A DNA stretch of 64,000 nucleotides from Candidatus Thorarchaeota archaeon. Its GTDB lineage: Archaea > Asgardarchaeota > Thorarchaeia > Thorarchaeales > Thorarchaeaceae. The stretch lies in contig JACAEL010000026.1 in the NCBI GenBank assembly GCA_013388835.1, positions 92,780 through 156,779 on the forward strand, read 5' to 3'. How positions within the stretch are numbered: the first letter of the stretch is position 1; each line of letters starts with the position of its first letter. Position numbers and translations under genes: made by a program. Below, piece after piece: positions 42,924 through 64,000 of this stretch. The notes under the pieces were generated by a model. That model was given only the letters and a program-made list of their open reading frames with translations, did no database searches and was not told where the DNA came from.

Positions 42924-44525
42924 TCATGGCAGTGGCGGGGTGATTATGCAGTCCTTCTCCCACTCCACCTCAAAGCCATATTCCACTTGGAGTTCCTTTC
43001 CAGGGTCTATTGTGGCTTCCCACTCGAGTACTCCCATCTCGAACTTCTTCTCCGGAAGCGAAGGGGGTGGTTGCAGAGTGACTGTTATCTTCTCGGAGCC
43101 ACTGTAAGGAATCCTATCAACAATGCGAATCTCAGCAGGGTTCTTCGAGAAGTTCTTCAGTTCAAGCCTGTACTTGTAGGCCCGCTTCTTCTTCCCCTTG
43201 GTGATGCCCGCCTTCTCGGTGTCCTTCAGAGCCAGCTTCTTCTCCGCCTTGATGTCATATGCAGTCCGGGTCCCGATTCTGATCTTCTCACGCGGGGCCA
43301 CGAGATTGATGTGGGTCTCGCCGATGAAGTCACCGTTTGCATAGACCCTCACCTTCCCTGGGAGCATCACCGAGTCGCCGTTTGTCACCTCGTCCTGAGC
43401 TACCACTTCCGACATCGCATAGGCGTTCCAGTAGTATAACACCCTTGACACGAAGGTCTCCTCGGTCAGAGTCACTGGATGAGGCTCCCTTCCGGACTCG
43501 ATAGTCACACGACCTGGGACCGCGTAGATGACTGTGCCACCCAGTGATTCGGAGACCGCGGCGAATGACTCCTCGATTTCCGTGGCACTCGTTTCCTGCT
43601 CTTCAGCACGCTCGTACTCGTATGCACCAGCCTCTTCCTTTGCTCCCGACTGAGGCTCCGCCATCCTCTTTCGGTCTCTAAGGGCAAAGGCCTTTGGTAG
43701 CTGTCGCGCCGCCCTCAGCACGTCCACATAGAGTGGTTGGGCCTTCACTGCCTCTACTCGTGTTGCCGAGGCAGTAGACACAGTGAGGGACACATCGTCC
43801 CAGTCCTCGAGCGTGTTGTTCCAGACTGTCGCGATTCTCTTCACACGCGAGGACTTCTCAGACGTGTCAATGTCGTACATTGGTGTCCATCCTGACTGTC
43901 CCAGCTGGTATGTGACCTCAAGCTCGAGGTCCGTCGCACTGCTCGCATTCACTGTGATACTAACATCGGTCAGAGTCTCTGTGCGCCTCTCTCCTTGGAC
44001 TCGGTTCAGGTTCTGCTCGGTCGCCTGAATCGCAGAGGTGACCTCTCTCAACTCCCTCGACAGGTCTCTCAGTCTCTTCTTTGCGTCACGTAGTATCGCC
44101 GTTGTCGCCTTGTCCATCTCAGACAGGTTGTCCATCTTAGACTCTCCAGCAGCATACCATTTGCCGAACTCGGAGGAGAACTGGAGTGACATTGAAGATG
44201 CCCTCTTGACACGTGCTTGCTGTTGCGCGATTGCGTCGTTGATGTCATCTCTTCTGCGCTGCAGTTTGAGGAGTTGGTCTCGCAGCGTCTTGAGTTCTCC
44301 CTCTGGTTCATATGTCCTACTCACATGTTTGACGTCAATACCACGCAGGACTGCATTGCCCTTGCCCTTCACTCTGAACGAGTTCTCTTCAGCATATGCG
44401 CTGATGCCCGAGACCATCAGAATCTGCTCGCCCTCTACTAGCTTTGCCTTTCCCCTCCTTGTGATCCTAGCACCGTCTCTGAAGACCGTGACCTCAGATA
44501 TTCTTGTCTCAATGTTCTGTGTCAA
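42924..44525 (-). CDS. DUF4140/DUF4139-family protein (MuiA-like conserved hypothetical), paralog 1 (533 aa).
   Basis: The N-terminal block ISEVTVFRDGARITRRGKAKLVEGEQILMVSGISAYAEENSFRVKG matches DUF4140. A central coiled coil follows. The C-terminal blocks LEVTYQLGQSGWTPMYDID...EDWDDVSLTVSTASA and VIYAVPGRVTIESGREPHPVTL...GKVRVYANGDFIGETHINLVAPREK match DUF4139. Confidence 0.7.
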   Translation of the reverse strand: MTQNIETRISEVTVFRDGARITRRGKAKLVEGEQILMVSGISAYAEENSFRVKGKGNAVLRGIDVKHVSRTYEPEGELKTLRDQLLKLQRRRDDINDAIAQQQARVKRASSMSLQFSSEFGKWYAAGESKMDNLSEMDKATTAILRDAKKRLRDLSRELREVTSAIQATEQNLNRVQGERRTETLTDVSITVNASSATDLELEVTYQLGQSGWTPMYDIDTSEKSSRVKRIATVWNNTLEDWDDVSLTVSTASATRVEAVKAQPLYVDVLRAARQLPKAFALRDRKRMAEPQSGAKEEAGAYEYERAEEQETSATEIEESFAAVSESLGGTVIYAVPGRVTIESGREPHPVTLTEETFVSRVLYYWNAYAMSEVVAQDEVTNGDSVMLPGKVRVYANGDFIGETHINLVAPREKIRIGTRTAYDIKAEKKLALKDTEKAGITKGKKKRAYKYRLELKNFSKNPAEIRIVDRIPYSGSEKITVTLQPPPSLPEKKFEMGVLEWEATIDPGKELQVEYGFEVEWEKDCIITPPLP

Positions 44526-44539
44526 TACTCACTCATCTC

Positions 44540-46135
44540 CTATACCAGCGGCGGACTGACTGTCACGCCCTTCTCCCAGAATACCTCGTAGCTGTACTCG
44601 ATTGTCTCCTTCTTTCCGATGTCGATGGTCTTCTTCCACTGCATGACTCCAAGTTCATACTTCTCAAGACCTAGCCTCTCCCAGTCGACCTTCACTTCAA
44701 TTGCCGGGTTCAAGCTGTGCGGGACCCGGTCAAAGACTTCTATCTCTATGGGCCGCTTGGAGAAGTTCTCCAGTTCGAGTCGGTAGGTGTAAGACCTTCT
44801 CAGCTTGCCTCGTGTTATCCCCGTCTTCTCAACCTCTCTCGACACCATCTTCTTCTTCGCCTTCACGTCATATGCGAGTCGAGTGCCCATCTTGAACTCC
44901 TCGCGTGGCGATACGAGGGGCATCAAGGACTCTCCGATGTAGTCCCCCTCGGCATACACTTTCACCTTGCCGGGAAGGATCACGCTATCGTTGTTTGTCA
45001 CTAGGTCCTGTGCCACGACCTCGGACATCCCGTCTGCATACCAGTAATGTATGGTCTTGGTGGCTAGCTCCTCCTCTACGAGCGTCACCGGATGGCGGTC
45101 ATCGTCACACGGTATGGTGACAGGCTTCGGGAGCTCGTATACTGACACTCCCGATGCGGCCTCCGATACCTCCGCGAACTCCTCTAGCATCGGCGGCGCG
45201 GGCGGTGGTCGGGCTGCTTCGACTTTGAGTGACGGAGCTGCTATCGGCATGGTCTCCCCTGGCATGGAGGGTGGCATGCCGCCGCCGGTCATGCTCCGAC
45301 TTGGACGTGGAGGTGGAGGAGAGTAGACGTCGATTATGAGTGGAGTGGGCTCGACTGCCTCTACAGGCTGTGCTGTCGCGGATGAGACAACCAGCCCCAC
45401 TCGCTCCCACGGTTCCATCGTCTGGTTGGTCACCATGGCCACCCGTCGTATCTTTGCCTTTGTTGGAAGGAGGTCCACGTCATAGGTAGGAATCCATCCT
45501 GCCTCGTCGCACTGGTACGACACTTCGAGCTCAACTTCGGCTCTCTGAGAGACCTCCAGATTCACCTCGACGTTGTAGGAGACCTTCGTTCGTCTCTGGT
45601 ACTCGTCACGACCAAGGTTCTGTCGTACTACATTCATCTGGTCCTCCAACTCACGCATCTCTCTCTCAATGTCTCTGAGCTTTGACCTTGTCTCCGCAAT
45701 CATCTTCCCCGAGGTCTTGTCCATCTCTGTCAGAGCGGTGATGTCCCCCTCGTTCGCGGCAAACACCATGCCAAAGGTGCCTGCAAACTCGTTGTTCATC
45801 GCTTCGAGTTGGCTCAGTCTGGCTGTGTGGAGTTCGTGGTCGTCCTTGAGCTGCTGATACTGGTCTTGGAGACGCTCGAGTTGGTCCCGGAGTGCCTGAA
45901 TGTCCCCTACGGGTTCATAGACTTCGGTGTGGCGCTTGACATCAATACTTGAGAGTGATGCAGGTCCTCGTCCCTTCACCCTGAAGCTGTCCTCATGTGC
46001 ATACTCGGTTATCCCCATGATCAGTACCTTCTGAGGTCCCGCTTCAAGGGTCCGTTTGCCTACGCGCGTCACGCGGGCTCCATCCCTGAAGACAGTGACA
46101 CGCTTGATCTTCGTTTCCATTTCAGTCAAAGGCAA
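44540..46135 (-). CDS. DUF4140/DUF4139-family protein, paralog 2 (531 aa), with a Pro/Gly-rich linker.
   Basis: Collinear with paralog 1 (KRVTVFRDGARVTRVGKRTLEAG...FRVKGRG; LEVSYQCDEAGWIPTYDVD...EPWERVGLVVSSATA; GKVKVYAEGDYIGESLMPLVSPREE). It lies 14 nt upstream of paralog 1 on the same strand. Confidence 0.7.
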   Translation of the reverse strand: MPLTEMETKIKRVTVFRDGARVTRVGKRTLEAGPQKVLIMGITEYAHEDSFRVKGRGPASLSSIDVKRHTEVYEPVGDIQALRDQLERLQDQYQQLKDDHELHTARLSQLEAMNNEFAGTFGMVFAANEGDITALTEMDKTSGKMIAETRSKLRDIEREMRELEDQMNVVRQNLGRDEYQRRTKVSYNVEVNLEVSQRAEVELEVSYQCDEAGWIPTYDVDLLPTKAKIRRVAMVTNQTMEPWERVGLVVSSATAQPVEAVEPTPLIIDVYSPPPPRPSRSMTGGGMPPSMPGETMPIAAPSLKVEAARPPPAPPMLEEFAEVSEAASGVSVYELPKPVTIPCDDDRHPVTLVEEELATKTIHYWYADGMSEVVAQDLVTNNDSVILPGKVKVYAEGDYIGESLMPLVSPREEFKMGTRLAYDVKAKKKMVSREVEKTGITRGKLRRSYTYRLELENFSKRPIEIEVFDRVPHSLNPAIEVKVDWERLGLEKYELGVMQWKKTIDIGKKETIEYSYEVFWEKGVTVSPPLV

Positions 46136-46996: not shown

Positions 46997-47274
46997 GCCC
47001 TTGATTGTGCCGGAAAAGTGCCTTTCATCATAAGTATGATATCCATTAGTATATCCTTTATGCTCTATATCGCTCTTACAGGACGGAATATACCCAGATT
47101 GTGTATTAAATCGTATTCCATTGCATTATGGACGTCAGTGGATATATGAGTGTGTAATGTGGCGATGCAAATCCCATAAGTGCGCTCGTGCCTAAGTCAT
47201 TGACAGGCTGCGGACACAACGGAGCAGATCTCAAGGCACACCTGAAGTATCACGAGCTAAGGAGCAACTCGCAC
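46997..47274 (+). promoter_or_regulatory. AT-rich intergenic region upstream of the GH3 gene, with TATA-like elements (candidate archaeal promoter).
   Basis: Local AT content is much higher than the window average (…TATATCCTTTATGCTCTATATCGC…TGTATTAAATCG…GGATATATGAG…). AAGGAG lies 12 nt before the ATG at 47275. Confidence 0.3.
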
Positions 47275-48819
47275 ATGACGATGCTAAAACGACTGGTCAA
47301 GATGGTTGCCGAGAAGAAGGCACACGCTATCGACAAGATGCTCGAGCATCAACAGGAAGTGATGGAGTCAAAGCTGACGTCCATACTCCGAAGGCACCAT
47401 GACACAGTCTATGGAAGAAAGTATGGGTTCGAATCTATCAGAACCGCCGAGCAGTATGCTGAGCGGGTTCCACTGGTTGACGCTGAGAAGCTCAGGCCCT
47501 ATTTCGGAATGACTTATGTGGACCCGAAGGGGGGAATACTCACCAAGGACCCTGTGATATGGTACCTGCAGACCTCCGGGACAACAGGACACCCGAAGCG
47601 AGTACCCATAACCCGCCCCGGTCTGAAGGACTCGTCCAGAGGCTCTGCCATGACATGGATGTCATTCATAAACGCGGAGGAGGAGAACGCAGACATCCTG
47701 GACGGGACACTTGTGACTTTCGGTGCTGCATCAGTGCTCGATTGGGTGAACGGAATACCGGTGGGTTATGCGACGGGTGTCTATGCTCGCCACCAGAACC
47801 GGCTATTCCAGAGGCTCATCAAGCCGGGTGAGGACATCTTCAACATAACTGACATGGACACAAAGATGAGGGCCTATGCTCGGATTCTTGCGACCGAGAA
47901 CGTGACAGGACTTCAGGGTATCACGACGCTTTCGCTATCTCTGATCAGACGGATGCAGGACCAGTATGGACCTTGGCTTGCAGAAGAGCTCAGCAATTCC
48001 GAAGGCAGGAACAGGATTCTAGCATCTCTTGACGATGAGGGTCGACTTGATGTCAGTCAGCTCTGGCCTAATCTGAGGCTCTTTCTGGCCAGCGGAATCG
48101 ACACCACTCCCTACAAGGTCTGGATGACGAAGACCTTTCCCAACCTGAGCGTTGTCGAGATTTATGGTGCATCAGAGGGTGTCTTTGCTGGTCAGCTTCT
48201 GGAACCCCAAGAAGGGATGCAGCTGTTTGCAAACACGCACTACTTCGAGTTCATTCGAGAGAATGACGCCAACGAACCCAACCCTGCTGTGATTCCTCTC
48301 TCCGAGGTCAAGGTCGGAAGCAGGTATGAGATTGTCCTAACTAACATTCAGGGCTACTACAGATATCGCTTGGGGGACGTAATGACCTTCACGTCCACTG
48401 ATCCCTATTCTGTGAGCCGGATATCAAGAAGGGGAAAGGTGGTGAACCTGTCAGGTGAGAAGGTGTCTGATGCGCATGCGTCGATTGCGATGAGTGAGGC
48501 CTGTCGGAGGACGGGTGCACAGGTGGTTGACTACACCCTGTTAGGAGTGATAGAGAATGGGATTGGCCACTACACAATCGCTGCGCTGTTCCGAGACGAC
48601 TCAGTAGACTCCATAGAGTTTGTCCAGACCTTTGAGGAGTCCATGATGAGCATAAACCCAGAGTTCAGGGTGGTGAGAGAGGTTGGTGCACTGGGCCCAA
48701 CCGTGCTGAAGAGGCTTAAGGTACCGTACTTCGATGAGGTTGTCAAGCAGAGCCACCTGCAGGCAAAGCCTCATTGTCTGACGACCAGCAAGGACGTACT
48801 CTCGCTATGCGAGTCGTGA
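47275..48819 (+). CDS. GH3-family adenylate-forming enzyme (GH3 auxin-responsive-promoter superfamily, PF03321-like acyl-acid amido synthetase).
   Basis: YLQTSGTTGHPKRVPIT matches the GH3 SSGTSxGxxKxxP adenylation motif. YGASEG matches the GH3 Y-x-S-SE motif. Length and C-terminal domain fit the GH3 family. The start at MTMLKRLVKM is preceded by AAGGAG; the ORF track extends it to 47188. Stop TGA. Confidence 0.7.
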   Translation: MTMLKRLVKMVAEKKAHAIDKMLEHQQEVMESKLTSILRRHHDTVYGRKYGFESIRTAEQYAERVPLVDAEKLRPYFGMTYVDPKGGILTKDPVIWYLQTSGTTGHPKRVPITRPGLKDSSRGSAMTWMSFINAEEENADILDGTLVTFGAASVLDWVNGIPVGYATGVYARHQNRLFQRLIKPGEDIFNITDMDTKMRAYARILATENVTGLQGITTLSLSLIRRMQDQYGPWLAEELSNSEGRNRILASLDDEGRLDVSQLWPNLRLFLASGIDTTPYKVWMTKTFPNLSVVEIYGASEGVFAGQLLEPQEGMQLFANTHYFEFIRENDANEPNPAVIPLSEVKVGSRYEIVLTNIQGYYRYRLGDVMTFTSTDPYSVSRISRRGKVVNLSGEKVSDAHASIAMSEACRRTGAQVVDYTLLGVIENGIGHYTIAALFRDDSVDSIEFVQTFEESMMSINPEFRVVREVGALGPTVLKRLKVPYFDEVVKQSHLQAKPHCLTTSKDVLSLCES

Positions 48820-49615: not shown

Positions 49616-50539
49616 TTAAGCACGTTGTGACTGACTCTCACGAACCAATGTTGCCCTCAGCTGCAACAGAGCCCGCTCCATGTCCACGACCGTACGCTTG
49701 GAGAATAGCACCAAGTAGAATGAGAACACTACTATGAAGGCCATCGCCATCATGCCCATGAGAACAGGGTCATTGAAGCTGAAGTCCGGGCCCTGAACTG
49801 AGCCTTCAGATCCGACCTTGAATCCCTCGTTAAGGAAATTGATCAGAGTGTGTGCAACGATATTACCAACGAGACTGGTTCGTAGAGAGAATCGCTCGTA
49901 GTAGACTCCGAACATGGCTCCTAGAAGGCCGGACAGCAGAATCATTGAGACCCACTCGGTCGGAGGCGCTCCATTGGCCATGGGCCAGCAAGCGTGCCAG
50001 AAGCCAAAGACTATTGCGGAGAGCAGTATGGCTCGACGGACTGCCATCTTCTGGCGCAGGGAGTTCTGCAACATGCCTCGGAAGAGGGTCTCCTCAAAGA
50101 CGGCGTTGACAAAGAAGAAGAAGAATGAATACAATAGCAAGGACGGGTAGACGACGCTGAGACTGAGGGAGTATTCGGGATTCACAAACAGTCCGTACGC
50201 GACCGTGCTGCCGACGATGACCAAGAAGAAGACTGAGAAACCCACTAGTAACCCGGAGAGGACGAGAGGTCTCAGGTGTTTCTTGCTGAGACCTAGCACC
50301 GATTCAATCTCGTTCCGTCTGTAGACCCACACGACTGTCAGAATCACAGTGAGGGGACCAAGCTTGGATGGGAGAATGTTCATCCACGTGTTTCCAAGCT
50401 GCAGCACAAACACATCCACGACACGCCACATCGCTGACATGAGAAGAATTATGCAAGTCAGGGTCAGTAGACCGATGCTGCTCAACCGTCTCTTGGTTTC
50501 AGTGTGCACAGGCAAGTCATGCTCGGTAGTTGTAGTCAT
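49616..50539 (-). CDS. CPBP-family intramembrane metalloprotease (CAAX protease / Abi).
   Basis: Motif 1 AVFEETLFRG, motif 2 FGFWHAC (FxxxH), motif 3 region …IVAHTLIN…, within a multi-TM protein. The start was chosen at MTTTTEH, preceded by AAGGTGG; the ORF-track start is 50584. Confidence 0.7.
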   Translation of the reverse strand: MTTTTEHDLPVHTETKRRLSSIGLLTLTCIILLMSAMWRVVDVFVLQLGNTWMNILPSKLGPLTVILTVVWVYRRNEIESVLGLSKKHLRPLVLSGLLVGFSVFFLVIVGSTVAYGLFVNPEYSLSLSVVYPSLLLYSFFFFFVNAVFEETLFRGMLQNSLRQKMAVRRAILLSAIVFGFWHACWPMANGAPPTEWVSMILLSGLLGAMFGVYYERFSLRTSLVGNIVAHTLINFLNEGFKVGSEGSVQGPDFSFNDPVLMGMMAMAFIVVFSFYLVLFSKRTVVDMERALLQLRATLVRESQSQRA

Positions 50540-50914
50540 TCCATTCCACCTTATTGTTGCGACATATCGAGGTGCTCTCGGCACAATATAAGGTCCGAAA
50601 CTGCCCGGTTTCTGAACTCGTCCACGTCTTCATGCCGACTCTTCATTGCCCGTACCGGAGCCGCAGGGCTGCACAGGGACAGTGCGAATGCACATTGCAT
50701 GAGAACCTGATGGTGCATTCTCCCAGTATTCGGCAGTTCTAGCACTGAGGCACTTCGATGAGTCGTCGCAGTAACGGATCGGGCTGAGGCTTCAGACGTC
50801 CTACATGATGGAATCTTGATATGTCAGGCCAACTGCTGGAAGGAGACCTGAGCATGAGGCCGTACAAGTCCCGCACATTGACGGACGAACCAGTGTATTC
50901 TGAATCCGGCCTGA

Positions 50915-52432: not shown

Positions 52433-53926
52433 ATGGTCGAACTGCTAGATGAACTGCCGTCCGACATGGTGTGTCTGCTAGACGAGGCAGCCGCCGCACT
52501 GAAGGGCGCTCGAAGAGGACTGGTGGTCTCGCACAATGACGCCGATGGTATATCTGCCCTTGCTATCCTTCTCACAACGCTTCAGCGAGAGGGCATCCCC
52601 CACGTATGGAGGAACATCCACCAGCTGAACTCGGACACAGTCCTCGAAGTGGCAGGGCTTGTGAGAGAACACAGTCCAGACCTCGTCGTATTCACGGACC
52701 TTGGGAGCGGCCAGATGCCACTGATACTGGACAATGTGACCCCGGAGATGGGTGTCACACGAGTGATTGTATTGGACCATCACCTGCTCCAAGACCGGGC
52801 AGAAGACGGTCTCCCCGAACATGTGACAGAGCTGAACCCCAACATACATGGCATGAGCGGCAGCAACGATGTCTCAGGGGCGGGCATGGCATTCCTGTTG
52901 TCCGTGGCTGTACGAGCGACCAACACGGATCTGAGTGAGCTTGCTGTGGTTGGCGCATCGGGTGACATGCAGGACTACTACGGCAAGGGGTTTGTCGGAC
53001 TCAACGCACGCATTGTAGATGCGGCTAAGAGAGCCGGTTACATTGCCGTCGAGAGAGACCTCACATTCTTTGGCATCAACACGAGACCCCTTGCTCAGCT
53101 CTTGGAGTACGCTACGGAGCCGTACCTCCCCGGCCTGACGGGCAATCGAGATGCATGTTACAGCTTCTTCACGGAGCGTGGCATCCCATTGAAGAGCGGA
53201 CCCGACGAGTGGAGGACATGGTCCGACCTGAACAAGGAGGAGAAGCAGCTAGCAGTTCAGGGTCTCATCGACGTTATCCTAGAGCACTATGCGGACCCAT
53301 CCATCGCACGAGGGATAATCGGTGATGTGTTCGTACTATGCAACAGGCCACGGAAGTCTGAGATGAGAAGCGCCAAGGAGTTCTCGACTCTGCTGAACGC
53401 CTGCGGACGGAATAGAAGGGCCGAGGTCGGTGTTGAGATCTGTCTAGGCTCCGAGGAGGCGTATGAACTCGGCAAGGCGCTTCTCCAGAGGCACCGAGCA
53501 AACCTTGCTGACGCGCTTCGGAGGCTTGAAACCGGTGGGGCCTCTGACAGACGAGGGATGTATTATGTCAATGACCCGCTGACGCCCGATACAATAGTGG
53601 GCATCGTGATTGGCATGGCGCAGGCAGCGAGGATAGTGCCCGATGACAGACCGGTGATTGGTGTGAGCACAAACACGACCGCCAACACCCAGAAGGCAAA
53701 GCTGTCCGGTAGGGCTCCACGCCATCTCGTGGACCGCGGTCTCAGTCTCAAGGAGGTCTTCGCCAACTCAGCAAAGAGGCTCAATGAGAGACATGGTGAG
53801 ATGCTGGCAGAAGGAGGTGGTCATCCGATGGCTGCGGGTGCCTTTGTCCGTGTCGAACATCTCGATGAATACGTCAGTCTGGTCTCAGATGAGATTGAGA
53901 GGATGTTGGCACAAAGAAGAGGGTAG
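52433..53926 (+). CDS. DHH-family phosphoesterase, archaeal RecJ/GAN (Cdc45-like) nuclease homolog.
   Basis: DHH motifs: SHNDADGISA (motif I), VFTDLGSG (motif II), VIVLDHH (motif III), and the DHHA1 GGGHPMAAGAF motif near the C-terminus. Length 497 aa, typical of archaeal RecJ-like proteins. Confidence 0.75.
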   Translation: MVELLDELPSDMVCLLDEAAAALKGARRGLVVSHNDADGISALAILLTTLQREGIPHVWRNIHQLNSDTVLEVAGLVREHSPDLVVFTDLGSGQMPLILDNVTPEMGVTRVIVLDHHLLQDRAEDGLPEHVTELNPNIHGMSGSNDVSGAGMAFLLSVAVRATNTDLSELAVVGASGDMQDYYGKGFVGLNARIVDAAKRAGYIAVERDLTFFGINTRPLAQLLEYATEPYLPGLTGNRDACYSFFTERGIPLKSGPDEWRTWSDLNKEEKQLAVQGLIDVILEHYADPSIARGIIGDVFVLCNRPRKSEMRSAKEFSTLLNACGRNRRAEVGVEICLGSEEAYELGKALLQRHRANLADALRRLETGGASDRRGMYYVNDPLTPDTIVGIVIGMAQAARIVPDDRPVIGVSTNTTANTQKAKLSGRAPRHLVDRGLSLKEVFANSAKRLNERHGEMLAEGGGHPMAAGAFVRVEHLDEYVSLVSDEIERMLAQRRG

Positions 53927-57454: not shown

Positions 57455-60400
57455 CTACTCCCAGTCGGTGGGCAGAGCCGCCAGTCCGCTCTTCAGCTTC
57501 ACTCTCAGTACGAGCGCAACAATGCCCAATACGAGGCCCCCATAGGCAACAGGAGACGTGGCTGCGTCCAGTGTGACTGAGAGTGGTCTTGTCGTCACGA
57601 TGATCTTGAACTCCTTCAGGTATTCCATATCCACAGGAACACCTCCGATCCACGCACTGACTCTGTACTGACCTTCAAGGAGAGGAATGAATGAGAACAC
57701 GACTCTGTCATTGGAGTAGGTCTGGACGGAACGGTTCAAGACCAGTGAATCGTTTACGTCGTACACACTGATGTGCATGCTTCCCCTCCAGCTCTCATCC
57801 ACGCCCAGGATTCGGATGGTCAGGCTCAGACTTGTGTTTTCACCTACGTACGCTGGTGTCAGCTGCTCGATGTCAATGGTCTTCACAGGTGTGACTGTGA
57901 TGTTGGCAACGAGGTCTGCGGGTGCGATTGACTCAGAGCCCTCGTAGTAGGCGACCAGCATGTACTCGTCCGCAAGAAGTCCCTCAACACTGAAGGCAGC
58001 CGTTCCCAGCGTGTTAGTTGATGCAGTCTGATTCAACCTCAGCACGCCGTGACTGAGGAAGCATATCCTCACACTCACCCCGACTAGCGGCGCGAGCGAC
58101 GTCCGGAGCGTTACTGACACGTGTATTCTCTGGTCGTATGGTGTTGCTTGCGGGGCATCCAGGTCAATGAGCGCCTCGTGACGGGTCAGGACGTCGAGGC
58201 TCGTGGTTGCGTTTAGGTACCTGCCAGTACTCTGGAAGACTATGACCAGGCGATAAGTCCCAGTCTGGGAAGGCCTCCACGCGACCTCCACTGTCCCAAG
58301 CGAGCTGACCACAAGTTGCGTCTGAGTCGTCAGTGGATTCCCATAGACCTCAGCGCCCGTCGGATTGAACAGACTGACAAGCACGTTATGACCCGACATG
58401 GGTGAGCCAAGGGAGTCGGACACGAGGACGACCACTCTGTGATCATGGCTGAGAAGGCCTGGGATTTGAGCCTGAACCACCTCGAGCGCCACACGACTGG
58501 TGACGACCAGTGAGGACTCGTACACACAACCCAGACGCTCGGCTGTGTCCTGGACCCGTACTGACACACTGTAGTCGTCTGGCAACAGACCTGTCAGGTT
58601 GAGCAAGACCTTGTCTCTCGCAAAGACCAGACGCCCTCCCAGGTCAATTGGACCGGACGCGAGACTCAGGACAATCTCAATCTCCAGTCCTGTAGGGTCT
58701 AGGGGCACACCGGTCTCATCCAGAACTTCGATGACAGCAGACACCAAGTCACTTCGGTCGAGTGACTCGGGTATCTCTGCATTGATGCTTGTCGTTCCTC
58801 TCACGAAAGCGGTCACTGCCACAGACGAGGCGTGATAGTGTTCGGTGCCCTCAAAACGAACTAAGACTGTGTAGTTGCCCATTCTCTGAATGAGGATGCT
58901 TATGTTCTCGGGCAGACTGCTTCTCTGTGTCACCCCGCCAGACAGGACAAGTCCGTACTCATCGTGGTAGACATCATAGAGAATCTGCCGACCCTCCAGT
59001 ACTGCGCCCTCAGTGTCCTGGAGCAGGGCGGTCAAGACCAGCGGCACTGTGCCTGCAAGTGGAGCACTGCCTTCCACAATCGCGACAGTGATCTGTGTGC
59101 CGAATCTCACATCCACAGTCACTGACCCGCTTGACGGCAGGTGAATTCCAAGACCTGAGAATGACACCTCGAGAATCCACTCGCCCTCTGAAGGTATCGC
59201 GACGCTGTACGTGACCCATCCGTCAGGACCGGTCACAAGAGTGACCGGGCCAATGTCAAGAGATCCGGGGCCATCCACCATTACAACCAGTGTCATGTCC
59301 GCCATCGGGAGCGAACTTGAGTTGCTGAGGCTGATGCTTGCGTTCAGGCAGCCTCCCACCTCAATGGTCTGAGTCACATTGAGAATCTGAATGAATGTCG
59401 GAGAGTAGACGACATGATACTCCTCGACGGTGAAAGCATGAGTGCTGGGAGTACCACTGGACGAGACCGTCACCCTGTAAAGACCTGCGAGCGATGGAGT
59501 GAAGGGCACGGTGGCAAGTCCGTTCTGGAGTGTGACCACCACGTTCTGGGTGAGTGCACCAAGTCTGACCGGGTTACCAAATGGGTCTCTTAGAGCGACT
59601 GTGACCGACATCCCTGAGATTGGGACTCCCAGTTGGTCAAAGACCATGACTTCAATGTAGACTTCGGTGGCCAGAGTAGGTGGATCCGGCAGGAAGTCCG
59701 TGGTGACGACGCATTCGCTCACTGCCATGAACTGTATCTCTGCATCTGCACCCAGCAGGAACTGCCCCTCAGTGGGTCCGGCTCTCACCATGAGGGTGCC
59801 ACGGCTATGCTGCACCAGATACATACAGCGCAGGGTGCCATTCGCATCTGTCAGGCCAAAATAAGTCCATACTGGGACGAGGTTCACATCAAGGACCTGA
59901 ATGCGGACACTGACGCCCGCGTCCTCACCGGGGCACTGAATCTCGTAGGTGATGGAGAGGTTGTCAAACAGATTGACCGTGGATGAACTCAACTCAAGCA
60001 CCCCCTCGGCAATCTCCATTACAGATAGAGTACTGGACGTGGAGTTGTCAAGGTAGTACGTGTCACCGGTGTGCGTGGCTGTCACCTGTGCCACGCCTCT
60101 GGCTGAGGGATACCATGTCACCTGAGCAAGTCCCTCCAAGGAGACAATACCGGCCTCGAACACCTTCTCATCGTCCATCCATATGGCAACCACAATGCTT
60201 CGGCCCACGACAGACCGGCCCAACGCATCCGTGAGACCGACTTGTATCTGAATGGAGCTTCCCAGCAGGACTGTGAGGTCGTGCTGTACGACGAGGTTGG
60301 GTGTCACTCGCACCCTCTGAACCATGATGCAGGAGGAGGGGGCATTCTCCTCTTCTCCGCCGAATTGAGCAGTGAGAATGAAGTCTCCCACCTCATCAAA

Positions 60401-63400
60401 GTAGTGCGCAAGACTGCACGTACCTCCGGTCCCCGTGGTGCGAACCACCGAGTCACGAAGGGTGCCATTTGCCCACTGGACCGACAGCGTGACCTGGTAC
60501 CCCACCATGGGTGTCCCCTGCCAGTTCACAAGCTGAGCCACAATGCCAAGTGTCGTACCCTGTGTGATAGGGTTGCCAGAGAGAAGCAATGCTAGAGTAG
60601 TCCTGCCACGGACGCTCCACACAGTGGTGTTGACGAGTCCTCTGAGGCAGTCCTGATCTGGCATGTCCAGTGCGACTGATAGGCTTCCCGGTTCTTCAAG
60701 GCCGACTTGAACCTGCAGCGTCCCAGACTGCGTAGTCGTGCCGAGAGTGTCAACGAGGACTGCTCCATTCAGTTCGACTCTTATGGACACGTTTACCCCT
60801 TCAATGCCAACACCATGGAAGCCGACAATGGTCACTTGAAGCATGACATTGGATACAGCCTCGAGAGTGTTGCTCCACTCCAGTTGGAAGTCTGCTTGTT
60901 CATACACGTCGGTAGTCCTCTGCGCCATGGCAGCCTCATACACGCCCTGTCTTGCGGACTGAGCAGTCACCGTAGTGGGTCCCCTGGCATCGGGGGTCCA
61001 GATAACGACCAACCAGCCATCGGAGCCGGTTGTACCCGTCGCCTGATGCACGGTGACCCCCTCGCGGACAATCATGACCTCGACCAGAAGTCCTTGGACT
61101 GGCTGCCCCATGTGATCATTTGCACGCAGTGCGATTGCTTCCTCTTCTCCCACTTCGAGTATCATTGGTGACAGACTGATTGTGACAGGCAGTCTGGTCT
61201 CGGTGCTCATCTCGCCGCTGGCAGCCCCTCTAGATAGAGACCCCGGGTACTCGAAGCGGATGAGATAGCTGCCTGCGCTATTTGGCACCCACTCCCAGGA
61301 CACATGCCCTGTCGAGTTGGTGGCAAGGCTTTGGAACACCACCTGGATGTCTGGAAGGAACACTATTCGTAGCTGTATCTGTGAATTGACAAGAGGAGTC
61401 CCTGCACTATCTGTCAGCCTTGCCCATGGTCTGTACGACTGACTGACAAGTGAGTCTGCCATGACCCCGCCAACTGTGATAGTCGTCGACGACCAGGACA
61501 CGATACCGACCGTCGTGTCCGAGCCGAGCAGGTGAACCGAGCCCAAGAACTGCCCGGTGACAGTGTACTCTCCGTTCTCTCCCAGTTCGAGCAAAAGCAT
61601 GACATAGCCTGTGGCGTTCGTTGTAAGTTGGGCGTCGAACACCACCTGTGCAGACGGACTGAGTACTATCGCATGGACGGACATTCCGGAGAGACCGTAG
61701 CCCCGCGAGTCGATGAGGCGCAGAGACATATCTGCCGTCGAATACTGGTTAACAACTGATGGACCGGAGTAGAGCATTGCAGTGTTCTCGGCGACGACAA
61801 TCTGACCGGAAGCACTGGAGGATTCAAGACTGCCATTTCTGGCGAAGTAGATTGTGAACGTGAATTCGCCTCTGTCAAGGGGCGACCAGACAAACACACT
61901 CTCCCCGTAGGTTGAGACCGCCGAGTCGCTGTGGACTAACTGGTCCGCGCTGTCCCATATCTTGATGGTGACATTCTGCGAGGCAACGGCGCTCCCATTG
62001 GAGACCAACCTCAGAGTCCAGGGGATTGAGATCTCATCTCCCAGCACTCCTTCGATACTTGACTGCGTGACTATCTCAGTCTGTAACGGTTCAAGAACCG
62101 TTATCACGTCGCTGAGCACTAGCATGTCACAGTGGGTCCGCTGGACAGTGACTGTGATAGGATGGGCTCCATCCCCCATGTCATCAGTGCTTACCGAGAA
62201 GTGGAGAGGGCTCTCAGTTGCATAGTTCCACTCTCGGTAGACTGGTGGTTCCCCTAGCCGCACTGTCACTTGACAGGGGCCAGCGGCAGCCCCGCCCTCC
62301 AGATACCAAGTCGCAGTCCCGTTCACCAACTCCCCTCTCATGACTGTGGGTGTCTCAACTGTCAGGTCGCCAGCAAGAGAACTCCTCACCTCGACATCGG
62401 ACGCCGCAAATGACCTGCTGACCCTGACATCCGACACCACGAGCGACACTCTCTGAGACCCCAGCAAGGAAGCGTCATATGGGACCGGGACAGAGATCAC
62501 GTCGAGGCTGCTCAGGCCAGTGTACTCCGTCCAGCTTCCAAACGCGTTCACGAACACGGTGTGGGTCGGGGAGGCTGAGGAGATGTTCAGACTGACACTG
62601 AATGCCTGTCCGAGGGTGGCAGTCAGCGGGAACGTGACGTCCAGCGTGGACCCCGTCGCGTTGACCATTCTGGTACGCAGGCCGAGAATCGACACCATGC
62701 GGAGCACGTCCGCTGTGAACACTGGCTGCCAGCCTGTGGTTGAGTTGAACCAGCCATTGCTGATACCCGCGGAGACAGCGTCAAGCACCTCCGAACTGTT
62801 GAACAACTGAAGTGCTGAGGGCGAGACCAGACCCGCAGAGACCAGTAGCGCAACACTCGACACATCCAAGCTCAGTGCCCACAGGTCATTGTACTGGACT
62901 CTGGTCTGGATGACTGTGAGTATCTCGCTGGCCATGATGGAGTCGATGAGACCGAGCCGAAGTGCCGCGCGCATGCTGAGGAAGTCAATAGCTGTTTGGT
63001 GTCCCGAGAATGGCCTGAGTGTCCAGCCCTCACCGGACCACATCCCGCCCTGATATGCGGCGAGTACAGCCGCGTTGAGTTCATCTCTGTAAGTGATCGA
63101 GTTCATGAAGCCGAGCGTGTATAGTACCTCGACTGCGGCGGCGGTGTACTGCATATGGGGTGTGCCAATTGGTACGTTGGTGAGTCTAAAGTGACCGCTG
63201 GAGTCCTGGGACTGCAGGGCATATGTCGCTGCAGACGATGCGAGCGGTGTCGGATACATCTTGAGGACCTGTGCTGACCCAATCCCAAAGTACTGTGTCC
63301 ACACGCTCTGAATCCGATACTGGGACTCTCTGTACTCAGGCGAATATGGGTATGCCGTGATGTTTGCCCATGTCGGGTACTGAGCCCATGTGGAAAAACC

Positions 63401-64000
63401 TGTCAGGTAATCGGCGGCAGAACTCAAGTCCACCAAGTCTGAGGAGTGAGTGGCTCTTGCACTCAGCGTGAGCCAGTAGGTCCACATCAGGGACGGGAGC
63501 GGCTCAACAAGCTCAAAACCCACCGGGCTCTCACAGGTGTTCACGAAGCCAATGATGCCTTCTCCGATGGCACCGGTGGCGTTGAGGTCGAAGAGGCACG
63601 ATGCAACAAGCGCAGTCTGCTCTCCCTTTGGCAGTATGTCTTCCGACTTCGCCGTGATGGAGAATCCGCCCGAATCGTGCTGATTGAGAGCAAACCACTC
63701 GAGTCCTCGTGTCCTATTCTGTGTGCTCAGTGTGCCCATTATCGCCATTGTGCTCAGCGCCGCAGATGTGCCCGCGACTCTCTCGGTTGACATACCGAGC
63801 TGTTCTCTGAAGGAGCCATCACCAACCATCATGCGCGTGATGAACCACGAAGTGAGCTTCAACGGGTCGTTGTGGCTCTTGCCAATAAGCTGTAGCGACC
63901 TGACGTACCTTGCTGCGTACGAGCTGCGCGGCGAAATGCTTGTTGGGTTGTTCCCGATGGCTCCCCAGAGGTCGGGATTGGAAGTCTCCTGGCCGTCGAT
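57455..64000 (-). CDS. Giant surface protein C (>2180 aa); the 5' end lies beyond the window.
   Basis: The open frame continues to the window edge: upstream of the track's TTG start there is no stop. The N-terminal region has prenyltransferase/alpha-alpha-toroid-like repeats (…LNQHDSGGFSITAKS…; …QSQDSSGHFRLTN…). A long array of Ig-like/Big-type beta domains rich in S/T/V/G follows. The C-terminus is a TM helix and tail, AYGGLVLGIVALVLRVKLK…*. Confidence 0.85.
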   Translation of the reverse strand: MDGQETSNPDLWGAIGNNPTSISPRSSYAARYVRSLQLIGKSHNDPLKLTSWFITRMMVGDGSFREQLGMSTERVAGTSAALSTMAIMGTLSTQNRTRGLEWFALNQHDSGGFSITAKSEDILPKGEQTALVASCLFDLNATGAIGEGIIGFVNTCESPVGFELVEPLPSLMWTYWLTLSARATHSSDLVDLSSAADYLTGFSTWAQYPTWANITAYPYSPEYRESQYRIQSVWTQYFGIGSAQVLKMYPTPLASSAATYALQSQDSSGHFRLTNVPIGTPHMQYTAAAVEVLYTLGFMNSITYRDELNAAVLAAYQGGMWSGEGWTLRPFSGHQTAIDFLSMRAALRLGLIDSIMASEILTVIQTRVQYNDLWALSLDVSSVALLVSAGLVSPSALQLFNSSEVLDAVSAGISNGWFNSTTGWQPVFTADVLRMVSILGLRTRMVNATGSTLDVTFPLTATLGQAFSVSLNISSASPTHTVFVNAFGSWTEYTGLSSLDVISVPVPYDASLLGSQRVSLVVSDVRVSRSFAASDVEVRSSLAGDLTVETPTVMRGELVNGTATWYLEGGAAAGPCQVTVRLGEPPVYREWNYATESPLHFSVSTDDMGDGAHPITVTVQRTHCDMLVLSDVITVLEPLQTEIVTQSSIEGVLGDEISIPWTLRLVSNGSAVASQNVTIKIWDSADQLVHSDSAVSTYGESVFVWSPLDRGEFTFTIYFARNGSLESSSASGQIVVAENTAMLYSGPSVVNQYSTADMSLRLIDSRGYGLSGMSVHAIVLSPSAQVVFDAQLTTNATGYVMLLLELGENGEYTVTGQFLGSVHLLGSDTTVGIVSWSSTTITVGGVMADSLVSQSYRPWARLTDSAGTPLVNSQIQLRIVFLPDIQVVFQSLATNSTGHVSWEWVPNSAGSYLIRFEYPGSLSRGAASGEMSTETRLPVTISLSPMILEVGEEEAIALRANDHMGQPVQGLLVEVMIVREGVTVHQATGTTGSDGWLVVIWTPDARGPTTVTAQSARQGVYEAAMAQRTTDVYEQADFQLEWSNTLEAVSNVMLQVTIVGFHGVGIEGVNVSIRVELNGAVLVDTLGTTTQSGTLQVQVGLEEPGSLSVALDMPDQDCLRGLVNTTVWSVRGRTTLALLLSGNPITQGTTLGIVAQLVNWQGTPMVGYQVTLSVQWANGTLRDSVVRTTGTGGTCSLAHYFDEVGDFILTAQFGGEEENAPSSCIMVQRVRVTPNLVVQHDLTVLLGSSIQIQVGLTDALGRSVVGRSIVVAIWMDDEKVFEAGIVSLEGLAQVTWYPSARGVAQVTATHTGDTYYLDNSTSSTLSVMEIAEGVLELSSSTVNLFDNLSITYEIQCPGEDAGVSVRIQVLDVNLVPVWTYFGLTDANGTLRCMYLVQHSRGTLMVRAGPTEGQFLLGADAEIQFMAVSECVVTTDFLPDPPTLATEVYIEVMVFDQLGVPISGMSVTVALRDPFGNPVRLGALTQNVVVTLQNGLATVPFTPSLAGLYRVTVSSSGTPSTHAFTVEEYHVVYSPTFIQILNVTQTIEVGGCLNASISLSNSSSLPMADMTLVVMVDGPGSLDIGPVTLVTGPDGWVTYSVAIPSEGEWILEVSFSGLGIHLPSSGSVTVDVRFGTQITVAIVEGSAPLAGTVPLVLTALLQDTEGAVLEGRQILYDVYHDEYGLVLSGGVTQRSSLPENISILIQRMGNYTVLVRFEGTEHYHASSVAVTAFVRGTTSINAEIPESLDRSDLVSAVIEVLDETGVPLDPTGLEIEIVLSLASGPIDLGGRLVFARDKVLLNLTGLLPDDYSVSVRVQDTAERLGCVYESSLVVTSRVALEVVQAQIPGLLSHDHRVVVLVSDSLGSPMSGHNVLVSLFNPTGAEVYGNPLTTQTQLVVSSLGTVEVAWRPSQTGTYRLVIVFQSTGRYLNATTSLDVLTRHEALIDLDAPQATPYDQRIHVSVTLRTSLAPLVGVSVRICFLSHGVLRLNQTASTNTLGTAAFSVEGLLADEYMLVAYYEGSESIAPADLVANITVTPVKTIDIEQLTPAYVGENTSLSLTIRILGVDESWRGSMHISVYDVNDSLVLNRSVQTYSNDRVVFSFIPLLEGQYRVSAWIGGVPVDMEYLKEFKIIVTTRPLSVTLDAATSPVAYGGLVLGIVALVLRVKLKSGLAALPTDWE

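What the first reader, a model, noticed from the sequence alone, without database searches (positions are those of the whole stretch)
57455..64000. Third giant surface protein (>2180 aa, 5'-truncated by the window) with prenyltransferase-like alpha/alpha-toroid repeats and an A2M-reminiscent KGEQT motif.
This - strand gene is distinct from the + strand pair. It is S/T/V/G-rich rather than W/Y-rich, and it is built from many Ig-like/Big domains plus a C-terminal TM anchor. Its N-terminal region has terpenoid-cyclase/prenyltransferase-like repeats (…QHDSGGFSITAKS…), as found in alpha2-macroglobulin/complement-type thioester-domain proteins. It contains ILPKGEQTALV, which resembles the CGEQ thioester motif but has Lys in place of Cys. 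It could be a thioester-less A2M-like or glycan-binding envelope protein. With the other two giants, it suggests an elaborate cell-surface architecture in this organism.
Basis: partly seen in the sequence, partly recalled or inferred. Interest (0 to 1): 0.5.

Follow-up and report, generated by a model that had tools for sequence, protein, structure and literature searches.

The report
Giant stalked Thorarchaeota surface glycoprotein
This is the last 84% of a 2,594-residue membrane-anchored cell-surface protein found across Thorarchaeota (Asgard archaea), in which about 17 Ig-like domains form a stalk carrying a prenyltransferase-fold head; it is not an alpha2-macroglobulin/thioester relative, and its 'KGEQT' string is a chance match.

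Summary
The ORF is real. Window 57455-64000 (-) is open for 2,181 codons. It is 100% identical to residues 414-2594 of NCBI NWF95601.1 ('hypothetical protein HXY34_05630', Candidatus Thorarchaeota), so 413 residues lie beyond the window.

About 50 orthologue clusters were found. All named ones are Thorarchaeota/Asgard, and lengths are fixed at about 2,600 aa, with a subgroup near 2,300 aa.

Architecture, from N to C terminus:
- signal peptide
- ThuA-like alpha/beta domain (outside the window)
- two 12-helix alpha/alpha toroids
- about 17 Ig-like (Big_1-type) domains
- one TM helix
- a 17-aa cytoplasmic tail ending in a conserved P-x-[DE]-W

The A2M reading fails. KGEQT is unique to this sequence (family consensus K-T-x-E-T). 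No Cys is conserved in the head. No TED, A2M, bait-region or receptor-binding Pfam family matches, and the domain order is wrong. The Cys expected for a prenyltransferase zinc site and the cyclase DxDD motif are also absent.

Best reading: a heavily N-glycosylated, stalked surface protein with a non-catalytic ligand-binding head. It is ordinary in kind, uncharacterised in detail, and its ligand is unknown.

The parts
57455..64000 (-). Coding sequence for residues 414-2594, plus the stop codon at 57455-57457, of a 2,594-aa Thorarchaeota surface protein (NWF95601.1). The first 413 codons lie beyond the window end.
   Evidence: Open frame of 2,181 codons. 100% identity over 2,181 aa to P0015. P0015 identified as NWF95601.1.
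63530..64000 (-). C-terminal half (6 of 12 helices) of alpha/alpha toroid 1 (P0015 aa 414-570). It includes the Pfam Prenyltrans match (window aa 33-157 = nt 63530-63904) and the family-invariant motifs H-x-D-P-x-K-L-T-x-W, D-G-S and N-Q-x-x-S-G-G-F.
63614..63628 (-). KGEQT (window aa 125-129, P0015 aa 538-542) at the start of helix 11 of toroid 1. Only the Lys is conserved, so this is not a thioester motif.
   Evidence: Homologues read KTRET, KTEET, KSRET, KMYTT and similar. It is the single GEQ in the protein.
62666..63490 (-). Alpha/alpha toroid 2 (P0015 aa 584-858; 12 helices). It includes the best-conserved 50-residue block of the protein, and carries a divergent copy of the repeat motif (Y-x-x-Q-S-Q-x-x-x-G-H-F/Y-R).
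   Evidence: AlphaFold2 secondary structure. Identity profile peaks at 0.59 for P0015 aa 751-800. hhalign of toroid 1 against toroid 2 aligns the repeat motif. Foldseek aligns about 600 columns to double-barrel class II terpene cyclases.
57596..62650 (-). Stalk of about 17 tandem Ig-like (Big_1 / Big_3_5 / Filamin-type) domains, each about 100 aa (window aa 451 to about 2135). The first one (aa 451-539, nt 62384-62650) was modelled.
   Evidence: Pfam Big_1 E 4e-26 and related families. 13 repeats by a family-trained HMM, plus spacing gaps of about 100 aa. Beta-sandwich at P0015 aa 864-952 in the model. 28 of the 31 N-x-S/T sequons fall at or beyond aa 401, near or within the stalk.
57494..57553 (-). 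Single C-terminal transmembrane helix (about aa 2150-2169, PVAYGGLVLGIVALVLRVKL).
   Evidence: Only Kyte-Doolittle peak above 1.8. The same feature is present in all 53 family members.
57458..57493 (-). Short cytoplasmic tail (KSGLAALPTDWE) ending in the family-conserved P-x-[DE]-W motif (LPTDWE = nt 57458-57475).
   Evidence: 52 of 53 members have [DE]W near the C terminus, with Pro at -3 in 41. Trp lies 14 residues after the first basic residue in 40 of 43, and 2 residues from the end in 40 of 52.

Best explanation
The gene encodes a type-I membrane glycoprotein of the Thorarchaeota cell surface.

Shown or strongly supported:
- A signal peptide directs export, and one C-terminal helix anchors the protein in the membrane.
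- About 17 individually conserved Ig-like domains form a stalk of fixed length.
- The stalk carries an N-terminal head made of a ThuA-like alpha/beta domain and two prenyltransferase-fold alpha/alpha toroids.
- The head lacks the chemistry of its structural relatives. It has no thioester Cys, no conserved Cys for a zinc site, and no DxDD acid.

Inferred:
- If the stalk is extended at about 4 nm per domain, it would reach roughly 60-70 nm.
- The head acts as a binding module for an external ligand, probably a glycan or another surface component of a partner cell or particle. This would make the protein an adhesin or capture receptor in the style of 'extender plus ligand-binding tip' adhesins.
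- The short cytoplasmic tail with its conserved P-x-[DE]-W end gives a fixed docking point inside the cell. The nature of the ligand and of any tail partner is unknown.
For: - Full-length identity and family: P0015 is 100% identical. About 50 clusters were found, every named one is Thorarchaeota/Asgard, and lengths are 2,527-2,631 aa, with a subgroup of 2,229-2,312 aa.
- Topology: signal peptides and a TM helix followed by a basic cluster in all members.
- Export and glycosylation signature: 31 N-x-S/T sequons against 12.7 +/- 3.2 in shuffles, with 0 of 2,000 shuffles reaching 31. The family mean is 36 against 19 expected. The protein is acidic and Lys-poor.
- No catalytic or thioester signature: no DxDD, no DDxxD, no Cys column at 90% or more. 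The conserved head residues are rich in W, Y, Q, E, R, D and H.
- The head is better conserved than the stalk, yet the stalk aligns collinearly domain by domain.
- More distant sequence relatives are also secreted or anchored multidomain proteins that combine the toroid with PKD, Big_1, subtilase or FG-GAP modules.
- Cultured Asgard cells display 'complex surface proteins' rather than an ordered S-layer (PMC9834061).
Against: - No ligand, partner or expression data exist.
- Genomic neighbours give no functional clue.
- A strictly fixed stalk length and a near-universal gene could instead point to a structural envelope role.
- Absence of a catalytic site was judged from motifs and conservation, not from inspecting the pocket.
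- The stalk beyond the first Ig domain was not modelled.
Confidence: 0.6

Rival explanations
1. Surface-displayed enzyme. The double toroid, possibly together with the ThuA-like domain, is catalytically active on extracellular glycans or isoprenoid-type substrates, and the Ig stalk merely holds the enzyme away from the membrane.
For: - The head has many family-conserved (≥90%) acidic, His, Trp and Tyr residues.
- One distant relative fuses the toroid to a subtilase.
Against: - No DxDD or DDxxD motif and no conserved Cys for a zinc site.
- No glycoside-hydrolase or cyclase Pfam family was matched by the window protein at E <= 1 or by the L001 orthologue at E <= 0.1.
- No NCBIfam hit.
- The closest structural matches are prenyltransferase beta subunits, whose chemistry needs zinc and an alpha subunit, and both are absent here.
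Confidence: 0.2
2. Structural envelope protein. The family is the main stalk or canopy component of the Thorarchaeota cell envelope, S-layer-like or a spacer that sets the width of a pseudo-periplasm, rather than a ligand receptor.
For: - The family is widespread among Thorarchaeota assemblies, its length is nearly fixed, and the Ig domains are positionally orthologous.
- A C-terminal TM anchor and strong sequon enrichment are typical of archaeal S-layer glycoproteins.
Against: - The cultured Asgard archaeon imaged in PMC9834061 lacks an ordered S-layer.
- A 17-domain extended stalk is far longer than usual archaeal envelope spacings (my own knowledge).
- The best-conserved part is the distal head, not a lattice-forming region.
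- Abundance and copy number per genome were not measured.
Confidence: 0.14
3. One reading: a thioester-less alpha2-macroglobulin/complement-like protein, acting as a protease trap or opsonin-type molecule, whose toroid is a degenerate thioester domain.
For: - Weak Pfam MG2 (38.5 bits against a 32.8 cut-off) and MG4 hits.
- The string KGEQT is present.
Against: - The MG2 hit (aa 1446-1525) falls on the same Ig domain as the Filamin (1428-1518) and CarboxypepD_reg (1449-1526) hits, and the MG4 hit (957-1027) on the same one as Big_1 (955-1017).
- No TED_complement, A2M, bait-region or receptor-binding family matched.
- The PDB profile search finds only RabGGTase beta.
- KGEQT is not conserved in any homologue, and no Cys is conserved in the head.
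- There are two tandem toroids at the N terminus, before all Ig domains, instead of one TED nested in a CUB domain after MG7.
- Prenyltransferases, cyclases and sugar enzymes all outrank thioester domains.
Confidence: 0.03

Closest known systems
Protein prenyltransferase beta subunits (GGTase-I, RabGGTase/GGTase-II and -III, FTase; Pfam PF00432 Prenyltrans)
   Different: Those are about 330-450-aa cytosolic zinc enzymes that work with an alpha subunit. Here there are two tandem toroids in an exported 2,594-aa protein, no conserved Cys that could serve as the zinc ligand, and only 13-16% identity.
Class II terpene cyclases (squalene-hopene cyclase, oxidosqualene cyclase, drimenyl diphosphate synthase, Rv3377c)
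   Different: No DxDD general-acid motif. The two barrels do not superpose as a rigid pair (TM about 0.4, rmsd 13-15 A). The location here is extracellular.
Alpha2-macroglobulin / complement C3-C5 / TEP / CD109 thioester-containing proteins
   Different: No CGEQ motif and no conserved Cys. No bait region, CUB domain or receptor-binding domain. The toroid is duplicated and placed N-terminally. The resemblance is at fold level only and is weaker than to prenyltransferases.
Giant 'extender plus tip' adhesins (intimin/invasin Big_1 arrays; RTX adhesins such as the Marinomonas ice-binding adhesin, PMC4083281)
   Same: The working logic is shared: a long chain of Ig-like domains projects a ligand-binding module away from the cell. 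Big_1 is the best Pfam family for the stalk.
   Different: The anchoring differs (an archaeal C-terminal TM helix rather than an outer-membrane barrel or a type I secretion retention module). The tip differs (ThuA-like domain plus double toroid). The repeats are divergent and positionally conserved rather than near-identical.
Archaeal S-layer / surface glycoproteins with a C-terminal membrane anchor
   Same: Signal peptide, Ig-like beta-sandwich domains, strong N-glycosylation sequon enrichment, acidic composition, and a C-terminal TM helix.
   Different: No PGF-CTERM-type sorting signal. Instead the TM helix is followed by a conserved 17-aa tail. Lattice formation is untested, and the protein is much longer than typical S-layer proteins.
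Uncharacterised 'prenyltransferase/squalene oxidase repeat-containing' surface proteins of bacteria and archaea
   Same: This is the label NCBI and JGI give many orthologues. The distant relatives found here combine the toroid with PKD, Big_1, FG-GAP or subtilase modules, and four of the five whose termini were read end in a C-terminal TM anchor.
   Different: This family forms a tight, isolated cluster: E-values jump from about 1e-230 (plus one divergent member at 1e-44) to 1e-20 or weaker for full-length proteins outside the family. It has its own fixed architecture and tail motif.

Membership tests
Alpha2-macroglobulin / complement thioester-containing proteins | G-C-G-E-Q thioester motif in the thioester domain | tested here: not met
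   The sequence has K-G-E-Q with Lys in place of Cys. Aligned homologues read K-T-R-E, K-T-E-E, K-M-Y-T and similar. Only the Lys is conserved, and no Cys column reaches 90% in the head.
Alpha2-macroglobulin / complement thioester-containing proteins | Match to the family's signature models (Pfam A2M, A2M_BRD, TED_complement, A2M_recep, Thiol-ester_cl) | tested here: not met
   None of these is listed at E <= 1 for the window protein, or at E <= 0.1 for the full-length orthologue. NCBIfam gives 0 hits. The PDB profile search finds no A2M or complement chain.
Alpha2-macroglobulin / complement thioester-containing proteins | Domain order: MG1-MG7, then a CUB domain with the thioester domain nested inside, then a C-terminal MG8/receptor-binding domain | tested here: not met
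   Two tandem toroids (P0015 aa 282-858) precede the whole Ig array (aa 864 to about 2550). No CUB domain was found.
Alpha2-macroglobulin / complement thioester-containing proteins | Macroglobulin (MG) beta-sandwich domains | tested here: inconclusive
   MG2 scores 38.5 bits (cut-off 32.8) and MG4 33.9 bits (cut-off 24.7). The MG2 stretch (aa 1446-1525) overlaps the Filamin and CarboxypepD_reg stretches, and the MG4 stretch (957-1027) overlaps the Big_1 stretch (955-1017), so the signal is a generic Ig-like one.
Protein prenyltransferase beta subunit (PF00432) | Pfam Prenyltrans model matched above its gathering score | tested here: met
   32.4 bits against 26.5 in the window fragment. 60.9 bits in the full-length orthologue from L001. 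36-45 bits in P0004, P0005 and P0009.
Protein prenyltransferase beta subunit (PF00432) | Alpha/alpha6 toroid fold | tested here: met
   [not shown]
Protein prenyltransferase beta subunit (PF00432) | Zinc site formed by Asp, Cys and His (established for FTase and GGTase beta subunits; my own knowledge) | tested here: not met
   This is an indirect test. No Cys column is conserved at 90% or more anywhere in the head; the best is 79%, in a V-A-x-C-L helix.
Protein prenyltransferase beta subunit (PF00432) | Cytosolic heterodimer with a helical alpha subunit | tested here: not met
   The domain lies between a signal peptide and a C-terminal TM anchor, so it is extracellular. No alpha-subunit-like gene is adjacent in the window or in four related loci.
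Class II terpene cyclases (SHC/OSC type) | DxDD general-acid motif | tested here: not met
   A regular-expression search of P0015 aa 1-954 finds no D-x-D-D and no DDxxD.
Class II terpene cyclases (SHC/OSC type) | Double alpha/alpha-barrel arrangement | tested here: inconclusive
   [not shown]
Bacterial Ig-like group 1 (Big_1) domain proteins | Pfam Big_1 matched above its gathering score, in tandem copies | tested here: met
   91.2 bits against 34.9, with 4 stretches. 13 repeats found by the family-trained HMM.
Archaeosortase substrates (PGF-CTERM and similar sorting signals) | A short motif (for example P-G-F), then a TM helix, then a basic cluster at the very C terminus | tested here: not met
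   There is no PGF motif. The TM helix and basic cluster are followed by about 12 further residues ending in a conserved P-x-[DE]-W. NCBIfam gives no hit.
Archaeal S-layer glycoproteins | Self-assembly into a two-dimensional lattice covering the cell | not testable with these tools
   Only indirect features could be checked: sequon enrichment and the C-terminal anchor.
ThuA-like / class I glutamine-amidotransferase-like fold (N-terminal domain, outside the window) | Fold match and Pfam ThuA match | tested here: inconclusive
   [not shown]

The most novel reading that the evidence does not exclude
The family could be an integrin-like adhesion receptor of Thorarchaeota. In this reading a huge glycosylated ectodomain binds an external partner, such as a syntrophic cell or a particle. 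Its short, geometrically fixed cytoplasmic tail (Trp 14 residues after the membrane, P-x-[DE]-W at the C terminus) would dock a conserved intracellular partner such as the Asgard cytoskeleton or trafficking machinery. The conserved, co-oriented 199-aa polytopic membrane protein encoded immediately upstream in relatives could act as a co-receptor or assembly factor.
Probability: 0.07. Interest if true: 0.75.

Novelty: new member of a known kind. Interest (0 to 1): 0.3.

Why it matters
Asgard archaea are the closest prokaryotic relatives of eukaryotes. The cultured Asgard archaeon imaged by cryo-tomography (PMC9834061) shows 'complex surface proteins' in place of an S-layer, and these are thought to mediate the cell-cell contacts relevant to eukaryogenesis.

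This analysis defines a candidate for such a molecule in Thorarchaeota. It gives the full length, the domain map, a confident head model and a conserved cytoplasmic tail motif.

It also removes a misleading lead. There is no evidence for an archaeal thioester or complement-like system here.

The protein is otherwise an already-deposited 'hypothetical protein' built from familiar modules. Its value is as a well-defined target for Asgard cell-surface biology, not as a new principle.

Tried and rejected
- Recovering the missing 5' end from assemblies by exact look-up failed, both for the neighbouring gene and for P0015 itself. The full protein was instead found as P0015 in the representative search.
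- The genome-contig scan returned two orthologous loci but not the source contig.
- A first AlphaFold2 run of P0004 with a 12-sequence alignment was unusable (pLDDT 53). It was replaced by a 56-sequence run (pLDDT 91).
- The afdb50 fold library was unavailable.
- NCBIfam gave nothing.
- A single-sequence PDB search gave only marginal RabGGTase hits.
- Neighbouring genes gave no functional clue. In the window they are a phosphoribosyltransferase, a TPR protein, a DHH protein, an Rce1-like protein and a GH3-family protein. In the relatives they include FEN1, a RadB-like protein and Nre.
- Five literature searches found no paper on this family.
- Rejected: thioester/A2M membership, active prenyltransferase, class II cyclase, and archaeosortase substrate. 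Reasons are in the membership table.
- Pfam does not detect the N-terminal ThuA-like domain even at E <= 10.

Full report
**1. The observation**

Window 57455-64000 on the minus strand translates into 2,181 codons with no stop, ending in a TAG-type stop at 57455-57457, and is open to the window edge. Pfam finds the following:
- Big_1 (E 4e-26, four stretches), Big_3_5, Filamin, MG2 and MG4 along the body.
- Prenyltrans PF00432 above its gathering score (32.4 against 26.5 bits) at aa 33-157, which contains QHDSGGFSITAKS.

ILPKGEQTALV is at aa 121-131. The only hydrophobic peak found lies near aa 2150-2169. The description is therefore accurate.

**2. The full gene and its family**

A search with the first 520 aa found only Thorarchaeota proteins at 45-49% identity. 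Two of them (P0004, P0005) carry a signal peptide and about 420 residues upstream of the point where the window starts. An exhaustive profile search of 1.84 billion representatives found 89 hits at E <= 0.001, of which 38 had E <= 1e-30. Nearly all full-length ones are 2,535-2,621 aa. Beyond them, E-values drop sharply to 1e-20 or weaker for full-length proteins outside the family.

One hit, P0015 (2,594 aa), is 100% identical to the window ORF over all 2,181 residues, with window aa 1 equal to P0015 aa 414. It is NCBI NWF95601.1, 'MAG: hypothetical protein HXY34_05630 [Candidatus Thorarchaeota archaeon]'. The window therefore lacks 413 codons.

A further search with a 31-sequence alignment listed 50 family clusters. 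Every named one is Thorarchaeota, apart from one labelled Hodarchaeota and one labelled Promethearchaeota. NCBI and JGI annotate them as 'hypothetical', 'prenyltransferase/squalene oxidase repeat-containing protein', 'terpene cyclase/mutase family protein' or 'prenyltransferase beta subunit'. A subgroup of 2,229-2,312 aa exists. In P0020, the one member I checked, about three Ig domains just after the head are missing.

**3. Anatomy**

All members start with a signal peptide. All end with a TM helix, a basic cluster and a short tail.

An AlphaFold2 model of P0015 aa 1-954, built with a 56-sequence alignment, is confident (pLDDT 91.1, pTM 0.88). It shows:
- an alpha/beta domain at aa 40-230;
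- 26 helices at aa 234-858, including two units of 12 helices (about 282-569 and 584-851);
- a beta-sandwich at aa 864-952.

The window starts after helix 6 of the first 12-helix unit. It therefore holds half of toroid 1, all of toroid 2, the whole stalk, the TM helix and the tail.

A repeat HMM trained on the family finds 13 Big_1-like repeats at roughly 100-aa spacing. Gaps that fit four more divergent domains bring the total to about 17. Identity to the other full-length members is highest in the head (0.40-0.59 per 50-aa block) and lower in the stalk (0.20-0.45). The alignment is nevertheless collinear, so each Ig domain has its own orthologue.

N-x-S/T sequons number 31, against 12.7 +/- 3.2 in composition-preserving shuffles, and none of 2,000 shuffles reached 31. 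The family mean is 36 against 19 expected. The protein is acidic, with D+E at 208 and K+R at 103.

**4. What the head resembles**

Foldseek agrees. RabGGTase beta scores E 4e-6, double-barrel class II cyclases align over about 600 columns at low TM, and C3b, A2M and the C5 thioester domain score near E 1e-3. At sequence level a family profile hits only RabGGTase beta in the PDB. An hhalign comparison of the two toroid halves aligns their Y-L-x-x-x-Q-x-x-x-G-(G/H)-F motifs.

**5. The thioester idea**

In a 31-sequence alignment, KGEQT is seen only in this protein. The family consensus at that position is D-[IL]-V-[AG]-K-T-x-E-[TS]-x-x-V-A-x-C-L, and only the Lys is conserved. GEQ occurs once in the protein, and about 0.4 occurrences are expected from the composition.

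No Cys column in the head reaches 90% conservation, and there is no DxDD or DDxxD. No TED, A2M, bait-region or receptor-binding Pfam family is matched. The toroids precede all the Ig domains. The MG2 hit falls on the same Ig domain as the Filamin and CarboxypepD_reg hits, and the MG4 hit on the same one as Big_1. A2M/TEP membership is therefore rejected. So is an active prenyltransferase or class II cyclase, on the evidence available.

**6. Mechanism**

Shown:
- An exported, membrane-anchored, multi-Ig protein with a double-toroid head.
- A head that is the most conserved part of the protein.
- A glycosylation-type sequon excess.

Inferred:
- The stalk projects the head tens of nanometres from the membrane.
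- The head binds rather than catalyses.
- The protein works like 'extender plus tip' adhesins.

This fits the 'complex surface proteins' seen on a cultured Asgard archaeon that lacks an ordered S-layer (PMC9834061). More distant sequence relatives are also anchored or secreted proteins that combine the toroid with PKD, Big_1, subtilase or FG-GAP modules, so the kind is widespread although functionally uncharacterised. The rival readings, a surface enzyme and a structural envelope component, cannot be excluded with these tools.

**7. Two further features**

First, the cytoplasmic tail is conserved in geometry:
- 52 of 53 members have [DE]-W near the end.
- Pro is at -3 in 41 of them.
- Trp lies 14 residues after the first basic residue in 40 of 43.
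- Trp is two residues from the C terminus in 40 of 52.
- A divergent member (P0044, 23% identity) still ends in …YPWSKE.

Second, in all four relatives whose loci were read (L001-L004), a co-oriented 198-199-aa polytopic membrane protein with no Pfam family lies 125-145 bp upstream of the giant gene. These four proteins share 32-48% identity with one another. In the source genome that position lies beyond the window end, and no copy exists inside the window.

**8. Verdict**

The object is a new, well-defined member of the known class of giant prokaryotic surface proteins with prenyltransferase-fold modules. It is already deposited as a hypothetical protein. Interest is modest and rests mainly on Asgard cell-surface biology.

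Noticed in passing
window 57458-57493 (-); family members P0013-P0130: The 17-aa cytoplasmic tail is conserved in spacing and ends in P-x-[DE]-W-x-x (here LPTDWE). This holds in 52 of 53 family members, and a 23%-identical outlier still ends in YPWSKE. It is not an archaeosortase-type signal. Its partner is unknown.
   Followed up: partly
L001:8002-8601, L002:8055-8654, L003:4260-4856, L004:4254-4850 (all +, directly upstream of the giant gene): A 198-199-aa polytopic membrane protein with no Pfam family (32-48% identity among the four) is encoded 125-145 bp upstream of the giant gene, on the same strand, in all four related Thorarchaeota loci read. Upstream of it lie a divergent 550-685-aa protein on the opposite strand, then a FEN1 gene and a RadB-like gene (the Pfam identities of the last two were checked in three loci). 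The corresponding position in the source genome is outside the window, and no copy is inside it.
   Followed up: partly
window 4373-11611 (+) and 11957-17776 (+): The two other giant ORFs (2,412 and 1,939 aa) also have an N-terminal hydrophobic signal and a C-terminal TM helix ending in RLRKKN or RRRK. They are Y/W-rich (7-9% Y, about 4% W) and carry 51 and 44 N-x-S/T sequons. They have almost no Pfam matches, only sub-threshold DUF7743 and CBM_56. They have no toroid and are unrelated to the protein studied here.
   Followed up: partly
P0020, P0122-P0130 (family subgroup): A subgroup of the family is about 2,229-2,312 aa instead of about 2,600. In P0020, the one member checked, about 300 residues (three Ig domains) are missing just after the first Ig domain. 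Stalk length therefore comes in two discrete classes.
   Followed up: partly
[not shown]
   Followed up: partly
window 42924-44525 (-) and 44540-46135 (-): Two adjacent paralogous genes (533 and 531 aa) each combine DUF4140 and DUF4139.
   Followed up: no
window 47188-48819 (+) and 49616-50584 (-): A GH3-family (acyl-acid amido synthetase-type) protein with all three GH3 domains, and nearby an Rce1-like CAAX prenyl endopeptidase homologue. Both families are better known from eukaryotes.
   Followed up: no
window 52433-53926 (+): A DHH / DHH-CID / DHHA1 protein (497 aa). It looks like a GAN/RecJ/Cdc45-type archaeal replication nuclease.
   Followed up: no
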